From: Paraspadella gotoi
Taxonomy: Eukaryota; Animalia; Chaetognatha
DNA: 64,000 bases
Direction: 5' to 3'
Assembly (NCBI GenBank): GCA_051294375.1
Contig: CM119264.1
Location: forward strand, 1,741,930 to 1,805,929
This document shows, piece after piece, positions 21,601 through 63,344 of the stretch (position 1 is its first letter; the number at the start of each line of letters is the position of its first letter). The notes under the pieces are model-generated. The model was given only the letters and a program-made list of their open reading frames with translations. It was not told where the DNA came from and made no database searches. Made by a program: the position numbers and the translations under genes.

Positions 21601-24600
21601 GGGATTTATCTAAGTTGAAGGTAAACATATGTCGGTACTATAAGCAATAGCTTAATTTTAAATGTTATCATGTTCATTTGGAGTTTTAAGTTGTCGCTAA
21701 CGATATGCGAGACTCTATAAGTTACTCTTGTTATTGGATCGGTTCGTAGTACTGCATAATTATACTTGTCCGTTATCTACTTCAATTCAGTTTCTTTAAT
21801 TGCTATAAATCTAATTTTAATAAAAATGTAATACTGAGATCATTCTACGATTTGCAAACAGACGTGGGATATAAGGTATTATTACATGCTTTTGTTTACA
21901 GTTGTTAAGTACAAGTGATCCATATATATAGAGTCTGATAGAGACTTTTTTTCATATATACTCTGTGTGAGTTGTTCTCATAAAATTGCTTGTAAGGACA
22001 ACTGAAATCTAGTTGTAGATGCTTGTTAGTATGTATCGTCGCTTTGCCTTAAGCAGAAGTCGGTGATAAATATTATATTAATGTGTTTGATTAAAACATT
22101 ATAAAAATAAAAAAATTAAGATTTTAGATGAAAATTTGCAAAATTACTTGTTTCAACCATATTTTTTAGTTTTCTATTTTGAATATATTTTAATAATTTT
22201 ATGAACGGTTTATAGTTTCTAATACTATATCAATTTTTTCAAACATATATTGGGCTTTCTTGTTTTTAAAAATGTTTTATGTTTTCTAATAAATTCAATT
22301 TCTTTTGACTGATAGAGCTTACTAGCAAAGTTAGATTAGAAGGTTTATTAATTAGCAACTTGATGTTGTTGCATTGTTGTTAGCAATTTTTTTTTTTATT
22401 TTTAGAGATTTCATATATTTTGTAATTAACAAATTATTAATTAATAATGATGATGAGTAATTATAAAATTTTTATCAATAAAAGTTGTTTATTTGGAATT
22501 TGTAGTAACTAACCTTTATCATAAACTTTTTAAATCTTTATCAAGAATCCATTTTTAATAATTGTAAATTTCTTTAAAAAAATTTTAAGCTATTTCTTTT
22601 TATATTATGTGAATATTTAAATGCTTCATGCATGAGGAAAATTTGAAGTTTTCATCAAATTTAAATGCATGAGAGTCAATTTGGTTGTAAAAATGACAAA
22701 AGACTTTTACTTGCCGACTTTTTGTCATATTGTAAATGTAAAAATTCTGGCCGACTTATTGGCTTAAGAAGTCACAATAAGAAGTCATGGCGAATAACAT
22801 TTTGAAGACTTGCGGCGGATCTTGTTTTTCCATTTTACTTTAAATCTACTAGGTTTCCATAAGTTTATGGTTTACAGGACCTAGTCACCCGACATCTCAT
22901 TTAACGCACCTCTTTCGCCGGATCAACATGCCGCGTGTCGAAAAAGTCGCGCTGCAGCGGGGTGGAGTTGGGATGTGTAACGCGGAGACGCCGGCAGACA
23001 AGCGTGAGATCGAGAACATGACGATGGAGATTGACGGCAAAAGCCAGGACGAGGTGTCGGCGAGACGCTCCCGTGCGCGCGAATCTGCTGGATTAGAGGG
23101 AGAAATGGCGGGGAAAGAAAATTTGCGATTGGAAAATGTCCGAGATGAGGGCGCGAGATTGTGGCGAGGTGATTTTGGTTTGTTGCAGGATTTTTTTAGA
23201 AGATTGTCCAGTTTGAGCCAATTATACATGTAAGGGCAATTTAGTACCGACACGCTTGCAATTCTGCTAGTTTGCAGAACTTCGGATTGTGACTGTAGTT
23301 CGGCCGCTACAGGTCGGGTAGACAGTCACGTCCGCTGTAGTAGGCATTTGACACGTATGGGTCGCGGGAAATCCAAGCACCGGGTAGGTGGGAAGAAAGA
23401 ATTGTCTCGCTCATTACGCGCAACCAGGGGCTTGCCCTATGGATTTCAGTCAGAGTGCGTGAATGTGTCGGCGATCAGAGGTATAGGTTTAAAGGGTTAC
23501 GGCTTAGGATGAGAAGTTCATGGGTAAGAGGATTTATCGTTAGGGATTAGGATTAAGTATCAGGTGGAGGGATTTTATCGTTAGGGAATTAGGATTGAAG
23601 TTGCAGGTTAGGGATTATCATTAGGAGTAGATTAAGTTCGATAAGGGGGATTTATGGTTTTGGGAGTTAGGTGTAAGTTCGCTGGCTGTTAGGGGATTTT
23701 ATCATTAGGGATTAGGTTAGTTGCGGCGTAAGGGAATCGTTGCAATGCAATTAAAGTCGGAGGGATTTTTCAGGGATTGGTCAAGTTCTGGTGTATGAAG
23801 CATCTTATTTTGGAAGTGGATAGTTTGTTCTAGTTGTTTGTAAATATTAAAAAAGAGTTAAAATTAAGTTAGAGATAAAACAAACACAGAAATGGGGACG
23901 CTCCATCGGAGGAAAAAGAGAGCCCAACGTGCGGCAACCTCACCCGCCCAAAAGAGGCGTCGTGCCCAACTGAGATTCTTGGATCAGTAAAAATCTCCAT
24001 CCTGCTTCCTTTCTCCTCAGTCCATGTCGATACGTGTCGTCCTGCGGCTGTCTGGCTTCCTAGCTGGTCGTCCCGGCGGAGCCCTGAAGGCAGCGAGCGG
24101 CGCGTGGGATGCTCGTTTGCTCCAGCCGAGCGGCGGAACGAAGCATGGTGCCAACGGAAAGAGAAGGGACCTATGCGTTTGTTCCGAAAGGCAAATGGCG
24201 GACAAGAGGTGCGAAAAAAGGAGGGTTCGCCGTAGGTCCACGCATGTGGGTTCTTTGTAGGGGAGCCAGATGTGTCGCTGAAATTTTGGGGTGGGTATGG
24301 GGTATGATGGGGTAAATCTTAAAGTGAGAATCTAGATGTTTGGAGTAAGGCTCTAGGAGTCGGCTGAAGAGCTTACCTATCTGTATGCTTTCTGTGCCGC
24401 GCCTGGCAGCAGGCAATTGAATGGGTCCTTTTCCTGGTGGGAACCGAGGCTTCCGGGGTAAGTTTTTACTTTTGCTTGATCGTTCTGTCCGCCCCCTTGG
24501 GTCCGTGGGCTTCGGAAAAGGTCAACGTGAGCCAGCGCGGTGTGACTATTGTATGGGTCCTATGAGCGCGACAGGTGAAGCTTAGCCGTAATGCCGAAGA

Positions 24601-27088
24601 ACGATAAAACAATAGAAAGTTAGCCCCTTTAATTATTTAATAAGACCGTGCTAGTCGATCCTTGCCTCCTTGGGTCAGTTCAGGTTAAGATATTAACATA
24701 CTAATAAGGAAAATGTTAGCTTAAGCTGTTTAATGCGAGACTTGAAGTTATCACGCAGGAAGTTTTATAAGCCACGGGATATTAAATGAATATTTTTGGA
24801 GTCTTATGATCACGGATGTTGTAATTTGGACGGTTGGTGGATGATAGAAATAGACTGAAAATGCTTGTCTCAAGTTGCTTTAGGCAACAAGCTTAACTAC
24901 TGGAGAAAGTATTAGCCTCGCGTGCGAGCTAAGATTTTTTTTTAAGGTTGGAGAAAAGTGAACGGCAATTTAGAATGGAGGGAAAACGGAGAGAGAGGAG
25001 AGAGAGAGAGGTAGATAAGAGAGAATGAAGGAAAATTCATATCGGAATCAATAAAGACGCAACGACACGATATGACGTTTTTTCCAATCCTGACTAGGCC
25101 TGTACGCACATGTCATCCACCATGCCGTGCCTTATCCCAGAAAGTCAGTGGTGTGACCCTTCCTCCCTGTTCAGCGCATTCTCCTTGCTCACTTAACGCT
25201 GTTCAACGGCCAACATAGTGGACTGCCTATGGTGAGAGGACCATAGTAAATGACTGAACCGATCCGTGTTCTGCGCGCTTTCTGTGGTGAGAAATAGAGT
25301 AAATTCCATATATAACTATACTTTGACACTATCTTTTGTCTCTTCTTCTGTCTCTCTGCTCTTACGTCTGCACTCTCTCATCTCTGCTCAGTCGTTCTTC
25401 TGCTCTCTGTCCTAGTCTCAATCTAGGCGTAGAGGCAAAAATAGCAGAATCTCTCGCACTCAGTGATCCATAATAGTCGTTTGCCTTTTACTGTTCCTTT
25501 AATTCCCAAGGAGTAACTTCAGTTCTTATTCTATTTTTTTTTTAAGGCCGGGAACAAATTTTCTGTTTCTTTTGGAAATATCATCGCGGCGCCCGGGCTT
25601 TAAAATGCTAACATGTAAAGAACATGAGACAAAAACAATAAAACCTGAAACAATGAAAAAGTGTTCATCTACAAGATCAACTCTTTTTAAAGTCGTTTTG
25701 GAAAAACAAAAAATAGAGAGCGTGTTAAAGTTTAGCAACCGCGAGTAGAATCAGCTGGTTTAGCTTTATTTTATATTCAAGTGATATGGACGGTAATTAC
25801 TGAGTTGAGTACGATAGTGATCAAAATTGTATCATATCGGCAACGCCTCTCTTCAGCGTCTGTTTCGTGTGGCAGAGAGGCAATCTTATTTCGACTATTC
25901 GGAAAAAAAGTTACGACCCGCTGAGTGTATGCTAGATTTCACACGAAGTTTGAAGGCAAAGTAGATATTGTCTCTGGATCTGGCCCACATTAGTATTCAT
26001 GGTGTAATCGTTAATGTAATATGTCTAATTAATAACTATAATTATTACAGTGATAATGTATAATTCAATTATATGATATTAAATTCATGTTATGAAATGA
26101 GTAAAATAGAATAAATAGTGGGTCCAGTAAATTGTTCTTATGTTAATCAGGTTAAGTGGAATATAGACAGGTTTATCTTTTGTCAATTTGTAATGACTTA
26201 TTTCCAACCTCTGGAAATGATTCAGCCATTCGGAGTAACTGATTTGTCCAGCTTAATAACACAACGTACGGGTCGCGGTGTACGGCAACACGGGCGGCTG
26301 GTGTACAGTAGGCGTGGCGAGTGGCAGATTGAGTCGGTGTTGGGAGTGTGCCAAGTGTGGGGATGCCGGAATACGTTATGGGCGTGAGGACTCGCAATTT
26401 AATGCAATGCAGTCCTGTCCAATCACGAGTAATTTGGTAGTTTTTTGCTAAGATGGGTACGGACGGACGGACGGACGGACGGACATTGGTTTTTATGCAT
26501 AATTTATCAATAATGTTCTGACATGAGTTTATTAAGTAATGCCGACAAGATTGAGGGGCGGACCCAGGACGGCCCGACAAAGGGAATATACGAGTCGGGA
26601 TATGCTAATAAGCAGATCCGATTAAAATAGGCTTGGAAAATAAATAAGGAATTAAATTCGCCAGAAGGGAAAAGAAGCGTAAAGAATTTATAGAGCAAAA
26701 AAAAAATTGAGAGACGAAATAATTCGGAAACGAAGAGGGTCAATAACATTAGAGGCTGAAACATGTACGGGCACTCCGATAGGACAGGGTGAACAATGCC
26801 AATGAACTAGACGAAGAAACACGAATAAGACGAAAGAACATAAGCTAACGACAAACATTAACGCACGAAAAACCACGAGTGAACAAACGAATGAACCAAA
26901 AGAACGAATGAACGATCTAACGAACAAATGAACAAACACGAACGAAACGAAAGGAAAAGAAAAAAAAATAAAGATCATAAGGTGGACTAAAATCGCACCA
27001 ACGTTTCATCAGCGGCCATTGGTGGCCGGAGGCAAGTCATTCGCCTCCCAACCCCAAAAGGTCGGGGTTTTAGCTCGGTGGGTCGCCT

Positions 27089-27167
27089 AGCAGTTTAGAG
27101 GGACGGGGCGCTTAACCCGCCTCGTAACTCGTTGTTACAGAGCCTGATCCGAAGCTCAGGGACTGCT
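27089..27167 (+). ncRNA. Putative permuted (P5-type) twister ribozyme, family A 5' LTR
   Basis: AGCAGU..GAGG GA CGGG GCGC U UAA CCC GC [P3] CUGA UCCGAAGC UCAG GG ACUGCU. P5, P4, T1 (CGGG/UCCG) and T2 (GC/GC) pairings are present. Confidence 0.7.
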
Positions 27168-27520
27168 TATATTGAACGGTTTCTGTCATTAACACACATC
27201 AATAATCACTGTCTCTTCATTGGTGAGCCCGACTTACGAACACAACGCAACAACAACACTTTCAAGGCAACATGACTCAACCCTGGCGAATGCACTTTCC
27301 GCCCACAACACATCAGGCGACAGTGCCTCAACTTGGTGACGAACTTTCCACCAACAACAACAATTCACTGAAGAGACGCAACAGACTTCTACCTATGGGA
27401 GGGGGATGTATGGTGACTAAAATCCACCAACCGTTCATTCAGCGGGCCATTGGTGCCGGAGGCAAGTCATATCGCCTCCGCAAGCCCAAAGATCCGGGGT
27501 TCTAGTCCCGCTGGCCGCCT

Positions 27521-27599
27521 AGCAGTTTAGAGGGACGGGGCGCTTAACCCGCCTGTAACTTAGGTGTTACCAGCCATGATCCCAAGCTCAGGGACTGCT
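27521..27599 (+). ncRNA. Putative permuted twister ribozyme, family A 3' LTR
   Basis: Same motif as 27089-27167 with minor differences (loop UCCCAAGC, as in canonical twister). Confidence 0.7.
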
Positions 27600-27771
27600 T
27601 ATATTGAACGGTTTCTGTCATTAACATCATATCAAGTAATCACTGTCTCTTCAGTCACTACATTAAACTAACTAAACCAACTCAACTAACTTAACTTAAC
27701 TTAACTTAACTTAATGAAAAGAATGAACGTACGAACACGAACGAGCGAACGACACATTGACTATTAAGTTA

Positions 27772-30369: not shown

Positions 30370-30446
30370 TGGACTCGAGAGAAGGAAGAGGAGGAGATTT
30401 TTTTATGTCCCAAGAATCTCAGTTGGACGACGCGCTCTTTTGGCGG
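30370..30446 (+). CDS. LGIC gene 2, 3' part of intracellular-loop/MA exon (5' part in gap)
   Basis: DSREGRGGDFFMSQESQLDDALFWR|gtgag, equivalent to NFWQ|gt in gene 1. Confidence 0.7.
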
Positions 30447-30584
30447 GTGAGGTTGCCGCGTGGGCTCTCTTTTTCGAGAGCGCCCCATTTCTGTTTGTTT
30501 TATCTCTAATTTAATTTTAATCTTAATATTTAAACTAAATATATTCCTAAAATTATGAACAAATCTTTAACCCTAATCCCTAAA

Positions 30585-30850
30585 AATAAATCCCTAACCA
30601 GAACTTAATCCTGATCCCTAATGATAAATCCCTTACCTGAACTTAATCCTAATCCCTAATGATAAATCCCTAGCCAGAACTTAATCTAATCCCAAACGAT
30701 AAATCCCTTATCGAACTTAATCCTAATCCCTAATGATAAATCCCTAACCTGAACTTAATCCTAATCCCTAACGATAAATCCCTCACCTGAACTTAATCCT
30801 AATCCCTAACGATAAATCCCTTACCTGAACTTTATCCTAAGCCGTAACCC
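30585..30850. repeat. ~38-bp minisatellite (cctgaacttaatcctaatccctaatgataaatccctaa), about 7 copies
   Basis: Tandem units are visible; mirrored at ~23500-23780. Confidence 0.8.
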
Positions 30851-30862
30851 TTAAACCTATAT

Positions 30863-31086
30863 TGTGGCGACACATTCACCACCTGACTGAATCCATAAGC
30901 GAAGCCACGGTGGCGTAAGAGCGAGAATTCTTTCTTCCCACCTACCGGTCTTGGGTTCGCGACCCATTGGTGTCAATGCTACTAAGCGGGACGTGACGTC
31001 TACCCCACCTGTAGTGGCCGACTACAGTCAAATCCGAAGTTCTGAAACTAGCAAATTGCAAGCGTGTGGTACTAAATTGCCTTAAT
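30863..31086 (+). mobile_element. Probable solo LTR, family D, with a degenerate twister-like motif (30977-31053)
   Basis: Starts TG. A/B-box-like 'ggtggcgtaag' and 'gggttcgcgaccc', then UGCUA..GCGG GA CGUG ACGU C UAC CCC AC CUGUAG..CUACAG U CAAA UCCGAAGU UCUG..UAGCA. The 3' end is inferred from the inverted copy ('gcccttaca'). Confidence 0.5.
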
Positions 31087-31210
31087 TATTTGGCTAACTG
31101 ACATCTTCTAAAAAAATCCTGAACAAACCAAAACCCCTCGCCACAATCTCCCCCTCATTCCGAATTTCAATCGAAATTCTTTTTTCCCGCCATTCTCCCC
31201 TCTAATCCAG

Positions 31211-31339
31211 AGATTCGCGCGGGGTCTCGACATCGTCTGCTTTTGCCTCAATCTCATCGTCAGTTTCGTCTCCGTTGTCTGGGCCGTCGTTAACATCAAC
31301 TCCCCCGTGAGGCCGACTTTTCGACACGGAGCAAGTTGA
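31211..31339 (+). CDS. Cys-loop LGIC gene 2 terminal exon (M4)
   Basis: ccag|RFARGLDIVCFCLNLIVSFVSVVWAVVNINSPVRPTFRHGAS*; paralogous to gene 1 M4. Confidence 0.82.
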   Translation, partial: RFARGLDIVCFCLNLIVSFVSVVWAVVNINSPVRPTFRHGAS

Positions 31340-32979
31340 TCCGGGCCGAAGGAGTGGTTAATTGAGTGGTTGACTGGTTGTAACCATAACATGGAAACCT
31401 AGTAGATTTAAATAAATGGAAAAACAAGATCCGGCAAGTTCAAAATGTTTCGCCATGACTCTTATGTGACTTCTTAAGCAATAAGTCGGGCCAGAATTTT
31501 ACATTTTTTACAATATGAAAAAGTCGGCAGTAAAAGTCTTTTGTCTTTTACAACCAAATTGACTTATGATGTTAAATTTTGATGAAATTAATTTTCCTCA
31601 TGCATGGAAGCATTTTAATATTTAATAATATAAAAGAAATGCTTAAAATTTTTTTAAAGAAATTTAAATTATTAAAAATGGATTCTGATAAAGATTAAAA
31701 AGTTAGATAAAGGTTAGTACTACAAATTCCAAAAAACTTTTATGATAAAATTTGATAATTATCATCATCATTTATTAATTAATTAATTAATTTTGTTAAT
31801 TTTCATAAACAAATCAAGTTGTAATAATAACCTTAATCTAACTTTAGAAGCTCTATCAGTCAAAAAAAATTGAATTATTAGATAAATAAAATATTTTTAA
31901 AAAAGAAAGCAATATATGTTTGAATAAATGATATAGATTAAATACTAAAACCTTCATAAAATTATTAAAATATTAAAATAGAAAAATAAAAAATAGTGAA
32001 ACAAGTAATTGCAAATTTTCATAAATCTTAATTTTTTATTTTTATAATGTTTAATAAACACATTATTAATATTTATACCGAACTTTTGTTAAGCAAAGGA
32101 CATAATACTAACAAGCATCTAATAGATTTTCAGTTGTCTTTAAAGAATTTATGAAAACTAACAAGAGTTATATGAAAAAAGCCTTAATATTTTATGATCA
32201 CTTGTCTTAACAACTGTAAAACAAAGCATGTAATAATACCTTATCCCACGTCTGTTTACAAACTAGAATGACTCAGTATTACATTTTATAATTAGATTTA
32301 TAAGCATATAAAACTTGTGAAGTAGAACAGACAATAAATACAGACTGACGAACCGTCCAAAAAAGTAACTTATAGAGTTTCTCCGCGAGTAATCGTAGCA
32401 CAACTTAAAACCTCCAAATAGCATGATAACATGAAAGTAATCATGCTTAAGTACTGAATTATGTTATTTACCTTAGAAATCCTCATACTAAAAAACTGAT
32501 CTAAAAATTATTTTTGTCCATCAAAACTTGAACCATGTACTGTATAAACTGTACTTCAGCTCATCTCTTACTTTCCATCGCTCAAAACCCGTAAGAATAA
32601 CTAACCTAATGGGAAGGATAGTAAATTTTTTGTACAGAGTTTGTATGATCTTTTCATTTATGATTTTTTTTTAACAATTTTCTTAATGAACTTGATTATG
32701 AAGTGTCTTACTCTTTGCTAATTGATTTTCAGGCTTTTTACCCTATTTGTATAAAAAAAATTAAAAGTAAAAAAAATGACTATTTTTGTTTTACAGGAAT
32801 AATTTATTTGTGGAAGACCACGACATAAGGAGTAGGGAGAGAGACACATATATTATAAGCGAGAGAAAACATAGCAAATATGTTCAATACAGGAAAAGAG
32901 ACAATAATGTAACGTGAACAGTTCGAGGGTTGAAACGGTTGTGTCTCTCGTGGCTACGGCCACGACGGAAGAAACCCGT

Positions 32980-33678
32980 TGAAGCCCGGGACGACGAGAC
33001 CAATGACCTGAGGTCTGAGGTCATGTGGTCGTTGAGGGAAAAGAGAGAGAGAGTCGAGGTAACTCGGCCTCATCCCCCCCTTAAGTCGCGTCTCTGGAAA
33101 GAGGCGCGGCTGACCACACTGGCGTCGAATCCATGGTTTGCTAAAAGCTATTTTTGATCCAAAGAGTCGATGTTGACGTACAAAATTGTTCAAGTCCTAA
33201 TCCATGAGCCGAGGGATTAAAGGAGAATGATATCCTCGGCAGTTTCGGCGGCGTCTGCAGCGTCTGCGGCGTTTGCCACGGCGTCGTCGCCGTCCATCAC
33301 GCAGTGGAGTTGCAGCAGGAACTTGAACACATTGCGCTGGCCTTTCCGCAGATGCCTTGTTTTTCGATTCCTTGGAAATTTTTTTTCATATGATTTCATA
33401 CACGTAAGAACGTGCATAGACATTTCGTCTTTGCGTCTAGGAAAACGTCGATATTGACAGAGACGTTGCTCGTTGGTAATACTTTTTTGTTCCGTCGGTT
33501 TTGTCGTGAGATAAACGTGAAGAAGGATAGAAAAAGGGGGTAAAGAAAAGAAAATTTTGATAAAAGAATAATTAAAGTATTGAAGGCCGGGACGACGAGA
33601 CCAATGACCGGAGGTCTGAGGTCATGTGGTCGTTGAGGGAAAAGAGAGAGAGAGAGAGTCGAGGTAACTCGGGCCTCA
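32980..33678 (-). mobile_element. Second type of TRIM-like element: ~95-bp direct repeats (32980-33072, 33581-33678) with TG..CA ends and a PPT
   Basis: On -, each repeat reads tgaggcc..cttca. 'aaggggggga' precedes the 3' repeat. No clear PBS or TSD seen. Confidence 0.5.
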
Positions 33679-34262
33679 TATTCAAGTTTATTACGAGTGC
33701 TGCAGCAATGGAAAAAAAAAGTTTAAATATCAATATAGTTTATTAGCTAATCAGATTAAGATTAAGCGTAAAAAAATGTTTTGTTTGTAAAATAAAACTC
33801 GCAAGCAGATTACGATTATTTAAACATGAGGACAATGAATGCTCTAGAAAATATTTGATTCTCTTATCGACTTTTTTGATACTTTACGAGTCTTAACTCC
33901 TTAAATCATGCTTAAAAAATAGACATAATTTTAATAGGTGTCTTAACGGCCATATTTTCCCAAAGCGCCCCATTTCAGATTAAATACCGAATTTAGTTAG
34001 GTAATTAAGTCAGTTTTTAAGTGGTTTGGATAATAATTAGTCTCTAATTAACAAGACTCTCGGAATAACAAATTGAGTTTATAATTCAATACTGGATTTA
34101 AACCTTATTGTATTGAATCCAAATTTAAAATACTATTAAGTGATAAACTATTCAGCAATAATGTTATAGATATATTAGAAGTAAAATATTCTTTGACAAA
34201 GGGTGACAAATAAGTTTTGAATATAGAAGCAACATCAGCATCATTATTTGTTTCAAATTAAT

Positions 34263-36536
34263 TTAAATCAACAGAAAGCTGATTGATATTGACAAAAACA
34301 GTAGAAATAAATTAATGACGTTGTAATTTTTTTCACCTTCGCTATAAGCATTTGCAAGAAATTCGTCAAGAAGGGAAGTCATTTTTTTATGACAATCTTT
34401 TTTCTTTGCTATTTTTTTAATTTCTTTAAAATAAACAAAAATTGGCGAAAATGGAGGTGTTTTAGTGGAGTAGAACAAAATAATATTTTTGGTTTGGAAA
34501 CTTTGAAATGTATATTTTTTGATTGCATTGTAGTAAGTCGTATTTCCGCTTTTGTTGTTAATTGTTGGAATAAGAAAATAAATGCTTGTTACAGAACATA
34601 ATAGCACAAACAGCGATTTAATAAAAAGTATTTTTTTTGCTTTGTTGTTAACTTTTGCAATTATAAAAAATATCCATGTAATCAAAGGCAACACAGAAGT
34701 AAAGGAAATCAAAGAATGTAATTCACTGAAAATCAACATTAAAATCAGATCCTGAAAAATTTTGAAATGATATTGGTTTTGATTGTAACAGATCATCTTA
34801 TAAGTTGTTTTTTTGTTTGTGTAATTGGTATTTTGAATCAGAAAAGCTAAAACTAGAATTACAGTTGATATAGCTCCAATTATTTTAAACTGTCTTTTTT
34901 CTCCATTTGATAAATGTTTCCATGGTTTTTTGGCAAAAGCTTCAATAAATAGAAGAACAAAGGAAAGTGTCATAAAAGTAGAGGAAAAATGTGTTATGCT
35001 TGTGAAGCCTCTGTATAGAATTTCTTTGGAGTCAAAAAAGCGTTTGAAGGTTTCATGTTTTTTACTAATTGTATATCCATTTTTATCAAGTTCTTGACTT
35101 ATATAATAATGACAGATTGTTGCATAACAATGATGGCAAAGTATGACAAATGGCATCATTGATGCAAATACAAAGGATATCATTTTCCTCAATTCTTTCT
35201 TTAAAATTAAATATGTTGCTACATAGAATATTCCTGAACTCAAATCAATGAGCAAAATTATCAAAACGATTGAATGTGTTGGGCTTAAAAATTTGTAATT
35301 TCCTATTGCAAAGGCGCCAAATTCAGTAAGACTTTTAGTTGGATTCATTGATTTGTATTCCTTGCACAAGACTGGGAAATTTTTTGGTAATATTTTTTGC
35401 CATCTCTTCTTGTCAATAAGTCCTATGGCTTGGTAGCAGGCTGAGATAAAAACTGTTTTTCCATAGACTACTACGAATGAAACAAATTTCGGCGCTTGGA
35501 TAAGTGATTTATGACTTTTTCTACCTATGTTCAAAAAGTTTGCATCAATTGTTAATAGCTTGTCATAATAAAAAAAGAATGATACAACTAAAACTGACCA
35601 TGAAACCATGATAAAATATTGGGGAAAAAAAATAATTTTTTTACTATATAATGAATTTGGCTCAAATCCTAAAGCACAAGTTAACACTAAATGTTTCAAT
35701 TCTGTGAAAGTAAAAATTCTTAGCAGAAGAGTTGGTGAGAGCAAAGAAAAAAAGGGGGTAATTTTTATTGCCCAAATATGTATGAGATATAGGTTAATTG
35801 TAATGCCAATAGCCCCTTGAATTAGGCTAAAAATGCCTTCAGGGGTCGCCAGTGTTCCTCGATATTTAGCAGAAAATGAGGCCAAGCTTAAAGTAGAAAG
35901 GCTAAAAGATATAAGTATTGGATATTGATCAATTTCCCAAGAGCAAACTTTCAGCTTTTCTGAAATAGTGTAACATTTGCATTTCTTTGATGATTGTATC
36001 AAAGTTAAATTTCCATTCATTTCATACAACAATTCTCCTCTATATGTCCTCAAACATTGCTTTGTAGTACCACTGGTTAATTCCAAGTTCAGCGCAGTAG
36101 CCTGCAGCAGTAATTGAGGATAAGACTCAAAAAGATTTTGCACAATGTCAAGCAATCTGATCAGATAAAACTTCTCTGCCAATAAAGCTGAAGATTTTAC
36201 ACTATTGGATCCTTGTTCATCTAAATAATGATCAATTATAAAGAGGGCGTTTCCCAAACCTAAAGCGCAGATAACCGCAGTAGCTGACCTTTTCCAAAAA
36301 CTTTTCCAAACACGAGGATACAATGCCTTTTTGTCTTTTAACCAGCGCCAAACCTGCGAGATTGCAATGACATTGTGCATCAACAGCACAATAGCCATGC
36401 CAATTCCAATGTATTGCTCCAAATAAAATTCTTTTTGACAAAATAGAATCATTGTTCGAAAATCAGTGACAACATCAATTATGTTTAAAGCAATTGTAAA
36501 AATAACAAAAATTTGTTGCACTTTGTTGCCGTTCAT
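34263..36536 (-). CDS. XK-related (XKR/Ced-8 family) multi-pass membrane protein, 757 aa, single coding exon
   Basis: Intact long ORF. N-terminal IIDVVTD helix motif and FESYPQLLLQ match the XK-family D-x-x-T/S-D and E-S-x-P-Q motifs. Many hydrophobic segments. Splice-acceptor-like sequence just upstream of the ATG. Confidence 0.85.
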   Translation of the reverse strand: MNGNKVQQIFVIFTIALNIIDVVTDFRTMILFCQKEFYLEQYIGIGMAIVLLMHNVIAISQVWRWLKDKKALYPRVWKSFWKRSATAVICALGLGNALFIIDHYLDEQGSNSVKSSALLAEKFYLIRLLDIVQNLFESYPQLLLQATALNLELTSGTTKQCLRTYRGELLYEMNGNLTLIQSSKKCKCYTISEKLKVCSWEIDQYPILISFSLSTLSLASFSAKYRGTLATPEGIFSLIQGAIGITINLYLIHIWAIKITPFFSLLSPTLLLRIFTFTELKHLVLTCALGFEPNSLYSKKIIFFPQYFIMVSWSVLVVSFFFYYDKLLTIDANFLNIGRKSHKSLIQAPKFVSFVVVYGKTVFISACYQAIGLIDKKRWQKILPKNFPVLCKEYKSMNPTKSLTEFGAFAIGNYKFLSPTHSIVLIILLIDLSSGIFYVATYLILKKELRKMISFVFASMMPFVILCHHCYATICHYYISQELDKNGYTISKKHETFKRFFDSKEILYRGFTSITHFSSTFMTLSFVLLFIEAFAKKPWKHLSNGEKRQFKIIGAISTVILVLAFLIQNTNYTNKKTTYKMICYNQNQYHFKIFQDLILMLIFSELHSLISFTSVLPLITWIFFIIAKVNNKAKKILFIKSLFVLLCSVTSIYFLIPTINNKSGNTTYYNAIKKYTFQSFQTKNIILFYSTKTPPFSPIFVYFKEIKKIAKKKDCHKKMTSLLDEFLANAYSEGEKNYNVINLFLLFLSISISFLLI

Positions 36537-36642
36537 TTTGATTTGTGAGCAGGTCGCCTTTAGAGGAAGAAATTATTGCGAAAGAAAAAAAAGAAAATTA
36601 GTTAAGAAAAGTTTGCAGAGTCATCTCATGCACTGTTTAATT

Positions 36643-38545: not shown

Positions 38546-38747
38546 TGAATTATTAGATAAATAAAACATTTTTAAAAAAGAAAGCAATATATATTTGTTT
38601 AGATAATATAGATTAAATACTAAATCCTTCATAAAATATAAAAATAGAAAATAGTGAAACAAGTAATTTGCAAATTTTCATAGATTAAATAGTAACATTA
38701 ATATTCTGGTGGTCCTATCACCACAGATCGATTAAAGCTGTTTTCTT

Positions 38748-38822
38748 TCGCAGCGACTCAGTGGCTCAGTGGACTAATGCACCATCCCAATGTGCGTCCC
38801 TGGTTCGAGCCCTGAGGTTGTC
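38748..38822 (+). promoter_or_regulatory. tRNA-like Pol III internal promoter (A box TGGCTCAGTGG, B box GGTTCGAGCC) in the LTR; repeated at ~39205-39275
   Basis: Near-consensus A and B boxes, bracketed by a ctcag/ctgag acceptor-like stem. Confidence 0.75.
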
Positions 38823-38900
38823 ATGTAGAAAGTGGGATGGACGGGTAACCCGCCTGTAGGCATGGGCCTACTGCCAGATCCTAAGCTCTGGACTACATGA
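38821..38900 (+). ncRNA. Putative permuted twister ribozyme, family B 5' LTR
   Basis: UCAUGUAG AAA GUGG GA UGGA CGG G UAA CCC GC CU GUAGGC-AUGG-GCCUAC UG C CAGA UCCUAAGC UCUG GA CUACAUGA. Confidence 0.7.
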
Positions 38901-39274
38901 ACATGCTGTCTCGCTGTCGCCACGAGGTGACACCGCTGCGGGTGTGGCGCCCTGTAAAACCAGCCTCTTTAATGGTGAGCCCGACGTGATCCGAACACGC
39001 AACCAACCGGGCATGATAATACTCCTCTGCCCTTGATGTGGTTTGAGCTACACAGCTGCCACTCAAAGCAAGGCCACCAGAATAAAGAGAGGTTCAGCGG
39101 AGAGACATGCGCTTCATCCCTGCTTCGTACTCTCATATGCGAGAGTCCTGGGGGCGGCTGTCTGGTGGTCCTATCACCACAGATCGATTAAAGCTGTTTC
39201 GTTCGCAGCGCCTCAGTGGCTCAGTGGACTAATGCACCATCCAATGTGCGTCCCTGGTTCGAGCCCTGAGGTTG

Positions 39275-39355
39275 TCATGTAGAAAGTGGGATGGACCGGG
39301 TAACCCGCCTGTAGGCATGGGCCTACTGCCAGATCCAAAGCTCTGGACTACATGA
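39275..39355 (+). ncRNA. Putative permuted twister ribozyme, family B 3' LTR
   Basis: Same fold with a perfect T1 (UGGA/UCCA), P4 CAGA/UCUG, 8-bp P5, 6-bp P3 and P1 = CCGG. Confidence 0.75.
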
Positions 39356-42245
39356 ACATGCTGTCTCGCTGTCGCCACGAGGTGACACCGCTGCGGGTGT
39401 GGCGCCCTGTAAAACCAGCCTCTTTAATATGATAAAATATAAAAAAAAGGAAATTGATAAAGATGTCACGCCTTGCCTCTCTTTTTAAGGTCGTTCGGCC
39501 AATTCTAAGGTCTGTTTTTTGGTCCCTCATATTTTTCATAGGCCACTCGTATTCCGAAAAAAATTTTTGATATGAAGATAGTTTCGTTTTAAAACTCATT
39601 GAATGTGTTTCGTCCGGAGGAAACTCTGTCTTTACGAGTTTCTGGGGAATTTTCCTTAAATAAATGTTTAAATATACAAAGTGACTTTTCTCTCATGAAC
39701 TCACGTTAAGCAATTCGTTATGGGGGAAAGTTCAAACTTTAAACGTTCGATCTCGCGCTGGAATAGAAAATATTAAAAGATTTTCTACAGAAATAGTGAA
39801 ACATCTCTAATATCTCATTGTCCAGAAGACAACATTATATTATTAAATGTGAAATAAATAATAGTTAAATCTAATGCTTATGTGAAATTTACATTATTTT
39901 CAAAGGTAGGTCACCTCAATAGGTATTTTATTAGCGTTCTGTCAGCGACTGAGATAAATGTAATATTCAAAACTGACAGGCATTGCAAAGTCACCATTAA
40001 ATTGCAGAGAAAGCAATTGTCTATTGTTAATAGTTTTTGTAAAAACTTTTATAAAAAAATCTGAAACTGCAATCGATGTTGCAGTCACTCAAGATTATAA
40101 TTAAGTTTCTTTGTGTTGTTAATAGAATTTTCCAAGATTTTTGTCTTTTCTCTGCATTTTAACGATTCAAAAAAGAAAAGGTTTCTATTGCTAATTACAT
40201 TCAGACGTCATAATATTTTTGATGAATAACAACGCAATTTACATTGTAAGCTGTTGTTACAATTTAAGAAACTATCAAAAAGAGTAGCCATTAGTATTGA
40301 TGATCACTTTTTTATAAGCAATATTTAAGTCTTAAAGAGTGGCTTGTCCTCACACTAGTGTAGCAAGTTGATCTAGAAAAAAAAATTTTTCAGTTTCCTT
40401 GCAATCTATTACTTCAGAACAGGTGATAGCTTTGCTACCATTGAGCTTTTCTAATGATTAATGGCGTTTAAAAAAACTTTGATCTCCAACTCTTCCAGGA
40501 ACTTGGAATCAGTTTATCCCACCTCTGTCCCGTCCTCACATTCACCACTCCAACATTAACTCCACTTTCCTCTCATTCAATCTTCCTTCTTCGCTCTTCC
40601 CTACCTAATACAACAAAGTCGACCAATGTACTTTTATCTCTTCCCTTTCCTATTTCCCTCCCACTCTCAAAAACACAATTCCACTCCCAACAATGGCTTT
40701 TCCTCACAACAGCGATGAAAATGACGATGGAAAAGACAAGAAATCCAGATGGTGACAATTATGACCATATCGATTATGAAAATGAAAAATGATGTTTTGA
40801 GGAATGATTAATAATATTAATACTACTGATTGATAGATTTATTTACTAGTTATCTATTAATTCTGGATTAATTAATCAATTGGTTTATTTACTTTATTAA
40901 TTGATTGAATGAATAATTGAGCCACTTTTTTCTTCTAGCAGCATTGCCGACCCGACCATGAGCTACAAAACAAGACGATGAGACGATATTTTGGCAACGT
41001 GAGCTTAGGCGGCCAACATTGTTACTGACATAGTGGCCGGGACAATGGTCAATGGAGTGAAGGCGGGGCGAGTGAAACAAGCTCAGATTTCATATTCTTT
41101 GTACTCATTTTACTATTTTGTCTCTTTATATGTGTTTTATTCGTTTACAACAATTAGTTGAAACAGTACATTCAAAAGGGCATACAGCATTACAGATATG
41201 GCCACTGATGATGATATTGAAATATATGTTCTTTAACTGAGGTCTATTAAGGCTGACTCGGTCTACGGTAAGTAAAAACGAGGTAGACGGCGGAAGAAAG
41301 GGAATATATATCGTTAGCGACTAGAAAAACCGGTGAATGAGGGAGTAAAAAAGGCTGAATGGGTGAGGACCGGTCAGAGGGAAAGAGCGTGAATGAAAAC
41401 CTCAACCCTGAACTCGATCCTGGATCTCCGGGAGGATGAAAAGAAATGAAGAGGAAACGGTGCAAGCTGACGAAGCCTATCGGCTCTTTCTGATGTCAAA
41501 ATATTCCAAAATATTCTGATACATTACCAGTCTACAAAGTATCAATTGAAATGAATCAAATATCAATTGAATTTCTGGTCATGTGAACGCTTTTATAGGA
41601 CTGCCTAAGTATAACACAACACTGAAGGTCTTGTTGTACCTAACTGAACTAAAAAAATTATAGACGCCTTTCTTGCTATTATTAGGGTGATATATTAGTT
41701 ATCTAAGTGATTTTAAGTGGCAGATTTAGCGAAAAAAAAAACTGACTGGTAAAATTAAAGTATAATAAATTTAAACAAATTGAATTTTAGGCAAACTTAT
41801 ACGCATTAAAAATAATTTAATAATTATTATTCAGGAAAAGGATACGAAAAGTTGTTAAATTAGTTCAACAAAAATATTCGCTTTTTTTTAAATCCAACTT
41901 TAAAAATATAAGTAAAAAGTGTCAATTAATATGAAAATTGCAAAATTACTTCTTTCACTATTTTAAGTCTTAGATTTATAGATTTTTTAATATTTATTAA
42001 AATTATTTATTACAAATTCTATTTTTTATTATTATTACTATTTTTTATTATTTAATATTATATAATTTTGGTCATTGCATTGGCTACCAATAAATAATAG
42101 AATTACGAGAATATTGAGAACGACATGGTGCTTGAGAGAGAGCTCACACATTCTCCATCGTGTTCATTATGTGAAAATTCTTCAAAGTTTTGAATTATGA
42201 ATAGATACAATTACAATATTATCAAAAGTTTTTATTCAAATCAAT

Positions 42246-44524
42246 TTATATAAACAAAAAGCTTATGGACACGGATAAAAAAAGTAAAAATATATTTATA
42301 ATGTTGTAATTTTTTTTTCCTTCAGTGTAGGCAATGACTTTAAATTCATCAAGAAGCAAAAACATTTTTTGATGACATTTTTTTACTTGGCTTGCTAAGT
42401 TTTCTATTTCTCTAAAATATACAAAAATAGGAGAAAATGATGGCGTTTTCACGGAGTAGTACAAAAAAATAGTTGGGGTATGGAATCTTTGAAATGTATA
42501 TTCTTTGATTACATAGTAGTAAGTCGTAATTTCGTTTTTGTTGTTATTTGTTATAATAAGAAAATAAATGCTTGTTACAAAACATAATAGCACAAACAGC
42601 GATTTAATAAAAAGTAGTTTTATTGTTTTATTGCTAACTTTTGCCAACATAAAAAATAGCCATGTAATAAAAGGCAGCATAGAAGTAAAAAAAATCAAAG
42701 AATGTAATTCACTAAAAATCAACATTAAAATCAGATCCTGAAAAATTTTATAACCATATGGGTTTTGATTGTAACAGATCATTTTATAGGTTGTCTTCTC
42801 GTTTGCATAATTTATATTTTGAATCAGAAAAGCTAAAACTAGAATTGTGCTTGCTATCGCTCCAATTATTTTAAACAATTTTTTTTCTCCATTTGATAAA
42901 CGTTTCCATGGTTTTTTGGCAAAAGCCTCCATAAAAATAAGAACAAAGGAAAGTGCCATAAAAGTTGCAGAAAAATGTGTTATGCTTGTGAAGCTTCTGT
43001 ATAGAATTTCTTTGGAGTCAAAAAAGCGTTTGAAGTTTCATGTTTTTTAACTAATTGTATATCCATTTTGAGCAAGTTCTTGACTTATATATTCATGACA
43101 GATTGTTGCATAACAATGATGGCAAAGTATGACAAATGGCATCATTGATGCAAATAAAAGGATATCATTTTCCTCAATTCTTTCTTTAAAATCAAATATG
43201 TTGCTACATAAAATATTCCTGAACTCAAATCAATAAGCAAAATTATCAAAATGATTGAGTGTGTTGGGCTTAAAAATTTATAATTTCCAATCGCATAGAT
43301 TACGAATTTATGAAGCTTTCTATTTGGATAAATTGATTTGTATTCCTCGCACGACACTGGGATGTCTTTTGGTAATATTTTTTGCCATCTTTTTTCGTCA
43401 ATTATTCCTATTGCTTGGTAGCAAGCTCTTACTAAAAACATTGGTCTATTTTTAATCGCAAACCAAACAAATTTAGGGGCTTGCACAGGTGACGTATCCA
43501 TTTTTGTAGTACGAATATTAAAAACGTTCGAATGAATTGTTGCCAGCTTGTCATAAAAAAAAAATAATGAGACAATTATAACTGGCCATGAAACCATGAT
43601 GAGATATGGTGAAAAATATTTTTTTCTTTTATTATATGAAGCAACAAGTCCTTTTCCTAAAGAACAATTTAACACTAACTGTTTCAATTCGGTGAAAGTA
43701 AAAATCCTTAGCAGGATAGTTGGGGTAAGCAAAGACAACCAAGGAGAATTTTTGATTGCCCAAACGTACATGATATAAAGATTAATTGTAATTCCAATGG
43801 TGCCCTGAATGAGGCTACAAATGCCGTCAGGGGTTGCCAATGTTCCTCGAGATTTAGCAGCAAATGAGGTCAAGCTAATGGTGGAAAGGCTGAAAGAAAT
43901 AAGCGTTTGATATTGATCAATGTCCCAGGAGCAAGCTTTTAGCTTTTCCGAAATTTTAAAACATTCGCACTCCTTCGATGATTGTGTCATAATTTCATCG
44001 CTCTTCATCTCATATAGAAGTTTTCCTTTAATTGTCTGCAAACACTGCTTTTTAGTACCACTGGTCAACTCTAGCATCAGCGCGGCAGCTTGAAGCAGTA
44101 TTTGTGGATAAGACTCAAACAAGTTGTGCACAATTTCGAGAGATCGAATAAAATAAAGCTTTTCTGTCATTAAAGCAGAAGATGTTACACTCTTGGATCC
44201 TTGTTCATCTAAATAATAATCAATTATGAAGAGAGCGTTTCCTAAACCCAAAGCGCAGATAAACACAGTGCCAGAGCTTTTCCAAAGACTCTGCCAAAAG
44301 CGCGGATATAATGAAGCCTTTTTTTTCAACCAGCGCCAAACATGCGCAACCAATATGACGTAGTGTATCAACAGTACAGTGCCTATACCAATTCCAATGT
44401 ATCGCTCTAAGTAAAATTCTTTTTGACATGAAAGAATCATTGTACGGAAATCGGTAACAACGTCGGTAATTGTTAAAAAAACTGTTAATATAACAAAAAT
44501 TGTTTGCACTTTGTTGGCTTTCAT
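42246..44524 (-). pseudogene. Second XK-related paralog, with one net -1 frameshift near 43157 (pseudogene or sequencing error)
   Basis: ORFs 43142-44584 and 42246-42959 are colinear with the 757-aa protein (TDVVTD, FESYPQILLQ). 'caaataaaagg' versus 'caaatacaaagg' in copy 1. A compensated indel pair lies near 43035-43050. Confidence 0.8.
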
Positions 44525-45161
44525 TTTCATTAGAGAGCAAGTCGCCTTCTGAGAGCAAAAATTTTTTTTGCGAAAGAAAAACAAAAAGTTATTGAGAAAA
44601 AGTTGTTAGCGAGAGTTCGCTAAAATAAGAGAAAATAATTAGCGTAATCTGTTATAAAATCGGAATAAAATGATTAAAAAATGTTTTTAATGCAATAGCT
44701 TTTCTTACTTTAAATTAAACTCTGTTTTTTGGGGGGGTTTTATTGTATAACTGTTCAACTGTTATTTGTTGTTCATTTTGAATTGATATGATGTAGCCTT
44801 TTGAGAAAGAATTTAAATTGAAAGTAAAAAGTAATTATCGATAGAAATCGAACAAGTTCTTCACTTGTCAAAAATTGTTCATTAATGTTCAGGATTTATT
44901 TAAAATAATTTTCGATCAAAAATTCCATTTACATCGTGTTTTTAATATGTATTTATTAAGAATGAATTTCCTAATTCAATTTCATATAATTTTTTTTTTT
45001 TTTTTTGCTAATTAGCTTCCGATAACTTTCGAAAATAGTCGGTGACCTTTTTCTGTTATTTTTCGTTGTTTTTTTTATTAAATGTTAATTGACAAACTGA
45101 AGCTCATTGAGAAATAAGAGAGAGTTTTGCCGGAAAAGTAAAAAAAAAATAGTTAGGGTCT

Positions 45162-46761: not shown

Positions 46762-47015
46762 TGTGTATATGGCGCTAAGTGGGGCTGAAGAGTGCTATCC
46801 GCAACTTCTTTAAGCGCCTCCAGCAGCCATGAAACGGGCCCTGGGCTTTGAACCAGGCTTGAGGGTTTGCCACGCCCCCAAGGCGGCTTACGGCCGTCCT
46901 CACGCTTCCCGCAGGGTAGGTACCGGGTTGGGATTGAACCCAGCTTTACTCAATGAGCCACTGGGTCACGACTGTAGGTGTCATGCGGGGTGAACCTAGG
47001 CAAAGCCCGACTACA
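46762..47015 (-). mobile_element. Solo LTR, family C, with TG..CA ends, GATT TSD, Pol III boxes and a twister-like motif (46834-46912)
   Basis: gatt|tgtgta..ctaca|gatt. On -: tggctcattg, ggttcaatccc, then GCGGG AA GCGU GA GGAC GGCC G UAA GCC GC CUUGGGG..CCUCAAG C CUGG UUCAAAGC CCAG GG CCCGU. Confidence 0.8.
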
Positions 47016-49704: not shown

Positions 49705-49895
49705 TGTCTTGTCGCTTGCAATTTGTTTATCCCGCCTGAAACCTTCAGTCTTGTCCCGTTGGCTCAATTGAGTAATACCGTCAGCTCAAGAACATTAGGT
49801 ACCGGGTTCGGTTCCATGTGATACATACCCTGCGGGAAGGGTGATGAGGGCCGTGAAATGCCTTGGGGCCGTCGAGAATCCTCAAGCCAGGTTCC
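49705..49895 (+). mobile_element. 3'-truncated, diverged family C LTR with a partial twister-like motif
   Basis: 'tggctcaattgagtaa', 'taccctgcgggaagggtga tgag ggcc g' and 'ccttgggg..cctcaagccagg' align to the 46762-47015 element. Confidence 0.65.
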
Positions 49896-50165
49896 GAACA
49901 CATTTAACGCTTTCTCCACACTTTTACCTCTTGAACTGGGAAGACTCTTTCCCTTTAATAGTTTTCCGGACCTTTTTTTAAAAAAACTAATAACAATCGA
50001 CAAATTTTTTGTTACTATCGCCTCATTTTCACTGAACCCGTCGACTCTTCTATATTTGGATACTTTATCCGGACAAGCAGGGTTCCGGTTTGCCAGTCTT
50101 AACTGTATTTATTGTATTCTACGAAGCATCTACTTACCTTTCAAACCAAACACATGCGGGAAATC

Positions 50166-50326
50166 TGTGGATAAGACGCTAAGTGGGCTGAAGACCACTA
50201 TCCATATTTTCTGTGTCCCTTCAGCAGCAATGGAACGGGTCCTGGGCATGGAATCTGGCTAGGGGTGTTTTCGAGGCTTCCTGCAGAGTAGATACCAATG
50301 GGGATCGTTCCCGGTACCTAATGGTC
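50166..50326 (-). mobile_element. Internally deleted family C LTR
   Basis: 'cgctaagtgggctgaaga..cagcagcaatggaacgggtcctgggc' aligns to 46772-46850. Confidence 0.6.
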
Positions 50327-62772: not shown

Positions 62773-63344
62773 TAGATGGCGCAAATCAATGGCCGTTTTT
62801 TATGAACCGAAGTGGCGCTGGACGTGGCGTGACGCTCGTCGGCACTAAATGTTATTGAGAATGTCTTATAAAAACAATGAACCAAATTATTTGGGTTCTT
62901 GATTAAAATCACCTAATACAATACCATCAGAGGCATAATACATATCTCCATTTACTAATGTGTAATTGCAATACTCTCTCTATGAGAACAATAGTAAAGT
63001 AAAATGACTTAACTTAACATGCAGAAGCATATTATTACACGNNNNNNNNNNNNNNNNNNNNNNNNNAAAAGACGATGAAAAAATTCTTGTTTTTCCCTCT
63101 TTTTTTTATTGTTAATCTTTTTTTTCCCTTTTTTACAGATCATCGGCGAACGCGTAATCTTTTCCCAGTCGACTCCCAGAAATCGGCTCAGCCAATCAGA
63201 AGGCCCATCNNNNNNNNNNAGAAAGGAAAAAACATAATGTTCTAAATTTATAAACTTTACTTCAAACTAAATCTTATCAAATGCTTAACCAAATCGTTAC
63301 GTAGCTAAATCCCAAATCGTTAACCCAAATCTCAGACCTGGACG

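What the first reader, a model, noticed from the sequence alone, without database searches (positions are those of the whole stretch)
39289..39310. P1 is reduced to a 4-nt palindrome in all four families, suggesting dimer-dependent cleavage
Seen: between T1' and N-UAA the families have GCGC (A), CCGG (B 3' LTR; the 5' LTR reads CGG), GGCC (C) and ACGU (D). These are four different sequences, all self-complementary and too short to form a hairpin. Established: minimal hammerheads with palindromic stubs cleave as dimers. Inference: the two LTR ribozymes of one transcript pair through P1, so cleavage would be favoured in full-length two-LTR transcripts and disfavoured in solo LTRs or monomer circles.
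Basis: inference. Interest (0 to 1): 0.78.

Follow-up and report, generated by a model that had tools for sequence, protein, structure and literature searches.

The report
Paired twister ribozymes in mini-retrotransposons
Four families of small, gene-less jumping elements in an animal genome carry a twister-type self-cutting RNA motif whose first helix is shrunk to a short self-complementary stretch; it likely completes that helix by pairing with a second copy, which would speed cutting as in dimeric hammerhead ribozymes, but cutting and pairing are untested.

Summary
The motif is a circularly permuted (type-P5) twister, not a hammerhead. It sits in the tRNA-headed LTRs of Helenus-like mini LTR retrotransposons. 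P1 is a 6-nt linker with a central palindrome: GCGC, CCGG, GGCC or ACGU. Public contigs show CCGG nearly invariant in high-copy family B and ACGU as the usual state of multi-copy family D. Four different palindromes are unlikely by chance (about 1e-5 if independent, about 1e-3 allowing common descent). In phages, 100 of 101 permuted twisters keep a linker of 14 nt or more. So pairing of P1 between two copies is likely. Dimer-DEPENDENT cleavage is less secure. Published work shows twisters cut without P1. A 6-nt linker can close as a tetraloop. Whole-element folding does not favour the swapped form, and circles may be protected by other folds. A wasp Helenus carries a full-stem hammerhead at the same place. 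Best reading: a shared P1 boosts cleavage of two-LTR transcripts rather than being strictly required. No RNA data were available. New variant of known kinds (twister, TRIMp3, LTR retrozyme).

The parts
38705..38971 (+). Family B 5' LTR (tRNA-like box A 38762, box B 38802; twister 38822-38899 with 5-nt linker ACGGG 38841-38845; predicted cut after 38846)
   Evidence: 261 identities, 3 mismatches, 4 gaps against the 3' LTR
38973..38990 (+). Family B primer-binding site, tRNA-Trp type
   Evidence: 17 of 18 nt match the tRNA-Trp site in Fig. S2 of PMC10886601
39150..39157 (+). Family B polypurine tract
   Evidence: sequence
39161..39426 (+). Family B 3' LTR (box A 39217, box B 39256); target-site duplication ATAT at 38701-38704 and 39427-39430
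39276..39354 (+). Type-P5 twister of the B 3' LTR: P5 7 bp, P2 with one bulge, P3, P4, L4 UCCAAAGC at 39334, T1' UGG at 39292-39294
39295..39300 (+). P1 remnant of B: A-CCGG-G; predicted cut between 39301 and 39302
   Evidence: register from the Rfam alignment
26978..27219 (+). Family A 5' LTR with tRNA-like head and twister 27089-27167; linker G-GCGC-U 27107-27112; predicted cut after 27113
27221..27233 (+). Family A primer-binding site, tRNA-Trp type (13 nt shared with B)
27397..27406 (+). Family A polypurine tract
   Evidence: sequence
27409..27653 (+). Family A 3' LTR with twister 27521-27599; linker G-GCGC-U 27539-27544; predicted cut after 27545; L4 has a T1 mismatch in this copy
46762..47015 (-). 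Family C solo LTR (TG...CA, target-site duplication AATC; box A 46960, box B 46941); twister with linker C-GGCC-G 46896-46891
49770..49900 (+). Degenerate second C copy; linker G-GGCC-G around 49849; its T1' UGA complements the C1 loop UCA
30863..31056 (+). Family D copy (box B 30953; twister about 30977-31053; linker G-ACGU-C 30995-31000; T2 is AC/GU); this copy departs from most D copies at 30994 and 31003
23262..23350 (-). Noisy duplicate of the D copy inside an inverted segmental duplicate; not an independent insertion

Best explanation
These are non-coding, tRNA-headed mini LTR retrotransposons whose LTRs each hold a type-P5 twister motif with P1 cut to a self-complementary 6-nt linker; the linker likely forms P1 by pairing with a second copy, most often the other LTR of the same transcript, and this would speed cleavage rather than be strictly required for it. 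Steps. (1) Shown in sequence: two LTRs, a Trp primer site, a polypurine tract, a 4-bp target-site duplication, box A/B, and a twister core with covarying T1, T2, P3 and P5. (2) Inferred: RNA polymerase III starts at the tRNA-like head and reads through both LTRs; B has no sense-strand T4 from box A to beyond its end. (3) Inferred: the two cores exchange halves into a nested rod with a shared 4-6-bp P1, which stacks under T1 in both active sites. (4) Inferred: both sites are cut before the conserved AA, releasing a 432-nt (A) or 455-nt (B) unit that is likely circularised and reverse-transcribed by a Gypsy-type helper, as modelled for plant LTR retrozymes. (5) Inferred: lone copies (solo LTRs, circles) cut more slowly.
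For: Four different palindromes at one fixed position, p about 1e-3 to 1e-5; read support for B and D. Phage control: 100 of 101 distinct permuted twisters have linkers of 14 nt or more and 94 of 101 have a helix of 4 bp or more, so nature keeps P1. The end pairs of our linkers (G.U, A.G, C.G or G.G, G.C) are all types found at the base of phage P1 helices; A.G (10) and G.G (2) are the only mismatches there that are followed by a helix. Isolated swapped dimers: -11.7 (A) and -10.3 (B) kcal/mol against two monomers, of which P1 gives -8.6 and -7.2. Precedent: metazoan hammerheads with a 1-2-bp helix III and palindromic loop work as dimers (PMC4209133, PMC7229834, PMC6765202, passages). P1-less twisters cleave inefficiently in one report (PMC8501958, passage).
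Against: Twisters lacking P1 are reported to cut at almost wild-type rate (PMC5408937, passage, citing Kosutic 2015, not read), and P1 defects did not lower cleavage among natural type-P1 twisters (PMC11662667, passages). In the natural two-LTR RNAs the local cores beat the swapped form by 5.6 (A) and 5.0 (B) kcal/mol, and the unconstrained folds give stub-stub pairing of 0.0015 or less (no pseudoknots, noisy sequence, B's 5' copy lacks one C). The 5' LTR core can fold locally long before the 3' LTR is made. Only one change event tests the inner pair (p 0.2-0.33 alone). Two published wasp Helenus LTRs carry a full-stem hammerhead at the same place (read by eye), so this life cycle does not need a dimer switch. 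No transcript, cut end or circle was seen.
Confidence: 0.5

Rival explanations
1. Each twister is fully active alone. The palindrome is kept for another pairing between RNA copies: dimerising the element RNA for packaging into helper particles, or holding two cut monomers tail to tail so that they are joined head to tail.
For: P1 is dispensable for chemistry. LTR-element RNA is packaged as a dimer, and Ty1 needs short palindromes for this (PMC6844567, abstract). After cutting, the linker is a free 3' tail of the unit RNA (from the anatomy). Circles can be shielded by other folds (cost of the core 11.3 and 6.6 kcal/mol), as described for plant retrozymes.
Against: The palindrome lies exactly at P1 and its flanking pair follows P1 first-pair usage. 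4-6 bp is short for a stand-alone dimer signal.
Confidence: 0.25
2. The linker is an intramolecular mini-hairpin (one closing pair plus a tetraloop, or two pairs plus a 2-nt loop). The palindromes reflect that pairing plus shared ancestry of a CG core, and no second copy is involved.
For: Positions 1 and 6 pair in A, D and C1. The inner CG is shared by A, B and D and changes only once. Six nucleotides easily span a base-pair distance (general RNA geometry, own knowledge).
Against: The closing pair is A.G in B and G.G in C2. Two-nt loops closed by one or two pairs are rarely stable (own knowledge). No stand-alone phage twister with such a linker was found: the one 6-nt case is the junction of two tandem type-P1 cores, and 2 of 242 short-linker matches were structured.
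Confidence: 0.15
3. The motif no longer cuts, or cuts only rarely. It serves as a structured 3' or packaging element, and the element replicates like an ordinary Helenus.
For: Rfam Twister-P5 does not match; no RNA evidence is available.
Against: All conserved active-site letters are present in the young families and in most D copies, with compensatory changes in T1 and T2. G, C or A before the cut are tolerated (PMC8501958 section 19).
Confidence: 0.08

Closest known systems
Type-P5 twister ribozyme (Rfam RF02684; reviewed in PMC5408937, PMC6154101; Roth 2014 not held, not read)
   Same: Order of strands, GA before T1', N-AA, P2, GC, P4 and the L4 loop with both pseudoknots.
   Different: P1 is a 6-nt self-complementary linker instead of a 5-13-bp hairpin; T1 sequence varies by family; the Rfam model does not detect it.
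Dimeric type-I hammerheads of Penelope-like elements and non-LTR retrozymes (PMC4209133, PMC7229834, PMC6765202, passages)
   Same: One helix is reduced to 1-2 bp with a palindromic loop, in elements that carry two or more copies.
   Different: Other ribozyme class; there the shortened helix abuts the core and monomers are shown to be poor, whereas twister P1 is reported dispensable. Ours are LTR elements with a primer site.
Helenus / TRIMp3 (Kojima 2024, PMC10886601; parts 1-4 of 6 read; supplement parts 1 and 6-9 of 11 read, whole file searched)
   Same: Short non-coding LTR element with tRNA box A/B in the LTR, primer site, polypurine tract, 4-bp duplication, many solo LTRs; tRNA-Trp priming occurs in wasp families.
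   Different: Most animal LTRs that I read end soon after box B with a T-run; ours continue into a twister and lack that T-run. The paper describes no ribozyme, and no twister loop was found in its LTR consensus sequences.
Plant LTR retrozymes (Cervera 2016, PMC4918200; PMC7761336; passages)
   Same: Non-autonomous LTR element with a self-cleaving motif in each LTR, primer site, polypurine tract, 4-bp duplication.
   Different: Those have monomer-active type-III hammerheads, tRNA-Met priming and 600-1000-nt units; ours have twisters, tRNA-Trp priming, a tRNA-like head and 432-455-nt units, in an animal. Circles are not shown here.
Twister T-variants of Schistosoma Perere-3 (PMC8501958; passages and section 19)
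   Same: Twister with a weakened P1 in a retroelement.
   Different: Type P1, at the 5' end of a non-LTR element, with the 5' strand of P1 supplied by the insertion site.

Membership tests
Twister ribozyme, type P5 | N-A-A at the cut site and G-A ahead of T1' | tested here: met
   A5, A3, B5, B3, C1; in D most contigs read A at 31003 (4,169 of 4,459 depth)
Twister ribozyme, type P5 | Pseudoknot T1 (3 bp) between L4 and T1' | tested here: met
   CCG/CGG (A5; D by contigs), CCA/UGG (B3), UCA/UGA (C1 loop with C2 strand); one mismatch each in window copies A3, B5, C1, D1
Twister ribozyme, type P5 | Pseudoknot T2 (2 bp) | tested here: met
   GC/GC in A, B, C; AC/GU in D, not contradicted by the rows shown
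Twister ribozyme, type P5 | Helices P2, P4 and closing P5 | tested here: met
   bulged base in P2 varies A/U/C
Twister ribozyme, type P5 | P1 as an intramolecular helix | tested here: not met
   6-nt linker; 94 of 101 phage examples have 4 bp or more
Twister ribozyme, type P5 | Match to Rfam RF02684 | tested here: not met
   no hit in the window or in the B LTR alone; control L014 scores 42.4 bits
Twister ribozyme, type P5 | Self-cleavage | not testable with these tools
   no raw RNA reads; bench test needed
Dimeric minimal hammerhead | CUGANGA ... GAAA core | tested here: not met
Helenus / TRIMp3 | Two LTRs, short, non-coding | tested here: met
   A about 676 bp, B 722 bp; no ORF of 120 aa or more over them
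Helenus / TRIMp3 | tRNA-derived box A and box B in the LTR | tested here: met
   clear in B and C; box B-like in A and D; no intact tRNA
Helenus / TRIMp3 | Primer-binding site and polypurine tract | tested here: met
   A and B; not seen for C and D, which have no internal region in the window
Helenus / TRIMp3 | 4-bp target-site duplication (animal families) | tested here: met
   ATAT (B), AATC (C1); A matches at 3 of 4
Helenus / TRIMp3 | Descent from a named Helenus lineage | not tested
   published consensus sequences were read by eye and searched for short motifs only
LTR retrozyme | Hammerhead in each LTR and tRNA-Met primer site | tested here: not met
   twister and tRNA-Trp site instead
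LTR retrozyme | Accumulating linear and circular unit RNA | not testable with these tools
   only contigs were offered

The most novel reading that the evidence does not exclude
A natural obligate-dimer twister: in these animal, pol III-driven LTR retrozymes cleavage is switched on only when two LTR copies share P1, so full two-LTR transcripts are cut to a unit circle while solo-LTR transcripts and the circle itself are spared. Hammerheads and twisters would then have converged on the same palindromic-stub switch, and a class of twisters invisible to Rfam would be spread through retroelements with paired repeats.
Probability: 0.3. Interest if true: 0.88.

Novelty: new variant of a known kind. 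Interest (0 to 1): 0.72.

Why it matters
It would be a twister that builds one helix from two copies, giving a simple, testable rule for how a retroelement cuts its precursor but not its circular template. Even without dimer dependence, the elements join three things described apart: pol III TRIMs, LTR retrozymes (described in plants) and twisters. With the unannotated hammerhead in two wasp Helenus families, this suggests that ribozyme-bearing TRIMs are an overlooked group in animals. The motif escapes Rfam, so relatives are probably missed in annotation. I found no description of a dimeric twister or of twisters in LTRs in searches (open-access library only; the four primary papers Roth 2014, Kosutic 2015, Lunse 2017 and Eiler 2014 were not held, and the CHiTA supplement could not be seen and may list similar sequences).

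Tried and rejected
Hammerhead reading: no core in the elements. Rfam: only low-complexity miRNA-type hits and no ribozyme in the elements. Own genome: none held, so no genome-wide tally. Expression: no RNA holder listed. X6 was guessed to be RNA, but its contig depths equal those of DNA run X7, so it was not used as RNA evidence. Relatives of A/B outside the host: metagenome scan, 9 loci, none with the element; viral scan for the stub form, 0; first viral scan, 1 structured twister of 120 loci, with a full P1. Prokaryote genome scan: the pattern lacked the L4 part and returned 120 chance rows, 0 twisters, so it is uninformative. Idea that the stub is selected to misfold the monomer: ranks 30, 256, 112 and 217 of 256 tetramers, no consistent signal, and the constraint was flawed for B; rejected. 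A candidate fifth family at about 24500-24600 shows no clear core (by eye); dropped. Summed contig depth was used only for rough multi-copy status, not as copy number. Host phylum was not determined; a Cys-loop receptor exon (PF02931, E 4.5e-8) points to an animal.

Full report
What is there. The flagged 22 nt (39289-39310) read GGATGGACCGGGTAACCCGCCT. They lie in the second of two 266-nt direct repeats. The repeats enclose a primer-binding site matching the tRNA-Trp site of Kojima's Fig. S2 at 17 of 18 nt and a polypurine tract, and are flanked by ATAT on both sides. A second element of the same build (family A, 26978-27653) shares 13 nt of the primer site. Family C is a solo LTR with TG...CA ends and an AATC duplication (46762-47015, minus), with a degenerate second copy at 49.8 kb. 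Family D lies at 30.9-31.1 kb and again in a noisy inverted duplicate. Each LTR has tRNA-like boxes just upstream of the motif; ARAGORN finds no tRNA. The window is indel-rich and has N gaps, and no genome is held. A Cys-loop receptor exon points to an animal host.

Which ribozyme. There is no hammerhead core in the elements. The motif has the twister layout in type-P5 order: P5, P2', GA, T1', linker, N-AA, P2, GC, P3, P4 with loop UNNNAAGC, P5' (residue roles and numbering are recalled from the O. sativa structure). T1 differs by family and stays paired: CCG/CGG in A, CCA/UGG in B, UCA/UGA in C (loop from C1, strand from C2). T2 is GC/GC in A, B and C and AC/GU in D. Four window copies carry one T1 mismatch each. 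Rfam misses all of them, while a phage control with a full P1 scores 42.4 bits. That alignment fixes the register: P1 begins right after a 3-nt T1' and ends right before N-AA. The remnant is therefore 6 nt: G-GCGC-U, A-CCGG-G, (C or G)-GGCC-G, G-ACGU-C.

Is the palindrome real. Nine DNA-like runs hold the region, all as contigs; I laid four on B and four on D (five different runs). In B the only listed change inside CCGG is C39296T, at 204.9 of 269,482 depth in X1; 33 weaker rows were hidden. Part of this comes from one contig whose equal depths across rows suggest the linker A-UCGG-U, still self-pairing with wobbles. B is young and uniform, so this shows the family state, not selection. D was the weakest case in the window. 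The contigs show it is multi-copy. Most copies have G at 30994 (3,769 of 4,383), which completes T1, and A at 31003 (4,169 of 4,459), which gives U-A-A. ACGT is kept except A30996T (394 of 4,383), with G30995A at 299; 118 weaker rows were hidden. A and C rest on two window copies each and were not checked against reads. Four independent palindromes have p 1.5e-5 to 1.8e-4; allowing descent from one palindrome and the observed numbers of changes gives p 1.4e-3. The inner pair, which cannot form within one strand, changes only once (p 0.2-0.33 alone).

Control. Two viral scans that left the linker free from 2 to 30 nt gave 140 loci read and 101 distinct matches with P2 of 2 bp or more and P4 of 3 bp or more; matches failing that filter were dropped. 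Of these, 100 have linkers of 14 nt or more and 94 have a helix of 4 bp or more. The one 6-nt case is the junction of two tandem type-P1 cores. The patterns cover only the GAGGG/UCCCAAGC subtype. The first P1 pair in the 101 is C.G 31, G.C 25, G.U 23, A.G 10, A.U 7, G.G 3, C.C 2, and our end pairs all fall in this set. So stand-alone permuted twisters keep P1, and the stub families look as if they obtain it elsewhere.

Does cleavage need the partner. For: isolated cores form a strand-swapped dimer at -11.7 (A) and -10.3 (B) kcal/mol relative to two monomers, against -3.1 without P1 pairs; the swap is fully nested in a two-LTR RNA. Hammerheads with a palindromic short helix work as dimers (passages). 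One paper calls P1-less cleavage inefficient. Against: reviews report near wild-type cleavage without P1, and a large screen of type-P1 twisters found no effect of P1 defects; the constructs described there had free ends, ours have a linker. In the natural two-LTR RNAs the local cores win by 5.6 and 5.0 kcal/mol, and the free folds are lower still. Forming the core in the predicted circles costs 11.3 and 6.6 kcal/mol, so circles may be shielded without any dimer rule, as in plant retrozymes. These models omit both pseudoknots and use noisy copies, so differences of this size are not decisive. The stub is not consistently auto-inhibitory. Palindromes also drive genome dimerisation in Ty1 (abstract), which is a real alternative use.

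Likely life cycle (inferred). Pol III starts at the tRNA-like head. B has no sense-strand T4 from box A to 39482; A has one at 27068, at a site where its other LTR has none. Most published animal Helenus LTRs that I read have a T-run just after box B (by eye). The transcript spans both LTRs and is cut at both twisters to a 432- or 455-nt unit. It then lacks terminal redundancy, so a circle is the likely template for a Gypsy-type helper, as proposed for plant retrozymes. None of this was observed.

Relation to known systems. The elements meet the Helenus/TRIMp3 description (PMC10886601) and work like LTR retrozymes, but with a twister. Kojima's text names no ribozyme, and motif searches of the supplement found no twister in its LTRs (line breaks can hide matches; parts 2-5 were seen only through searches). 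By eye, the two tRNA-Trp-primed wasp families Helenus-2_SyJa and Helenus-2_SyUm carry a complete type-III hammerhead after box B. This supports a real role for self-cleavage at this position and weakens the need for a dimer switch. Two unchecked notes of this scan describe type-P5 twister-like folds lacking P1 in Naiad-type Penelope elements of other genomes; they are leads, not support.

Verdict. Observation confirmed; interpretation partly supported. Pairing of P1 between copies about 0.75. That pairing raising cleavage (best explanation) 0.5, which includes the strict, obligate-dimer form at 0.3. New variant of a known kind; interest 0.72.

Noticed in passing
PMC10886601 Data S1, Helenus-2_SyJa-LTR and Helenus-2_SyUm-LTR: Both wasp LTRs carry a complete type-III hammerhead after box B, with complementary loops 1 and 2; these are the two tRNA-Trp-primed families found by search. 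The paper does not mention it. Read by eye only.
   Followed up: partly
L171, L183, L338 (phage contigs): Two type-P1 twister cores in direct tandem, joined by 6 nt; shows how a permuted core with a short linker could arise by duplication.
   Followed up: partly
window 26978 and 38705: In A and B the TG that follows the polypurine tract is absent from the inserted left end, while C starts with TG; the exact LTR start is uncertain.
   Followed up: partly
contig laid on 39265-39348: A diverged B relative, apparently single-copy, with linker A-UCGG-U, C before the cut site and P3 changes; about nine times deeper than another single-copy contig in run X6 only.
   Followed up: no
window 19669-24024 and 30370-34052: Inverted duplicate of about 4 kb at 75% identity with many indels; may be an assembly artefact. 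It holds the D copy and an unexamined element with 100-nt direct repeats about 600 nt apart (32979-33073, 33580-33679).
   Followed up: no
window 34263-36572 and 42246-44605 (minus): Two paralogous intronless membrane-protein ORFs (82% DNA identity, the second broken into two ORFs) with no Pfam match.
   Followed up: partly
window 53890-62850: Satellite array with a unit of about 135 nt.
   Followed up: no
window 30567-30848: Tandem repeat of about 37 nt containing telomere-like TTAGG(G) words on the minus strand, next to the D copy.
   Followed up: no
window 50120-50290 (minus): Third, decayed fragment of family C with most of the ribozyme lost.
   Followed up: no
window 39355-39410: G+C-rich hairpins downstream of the B twister; no known family matched.
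   Followed up: no
runs X6 and X7: Identical contig depths and lengths over family D; probably one data set filed twice, so X6 is no RNA evidence.
   Followed up: yes
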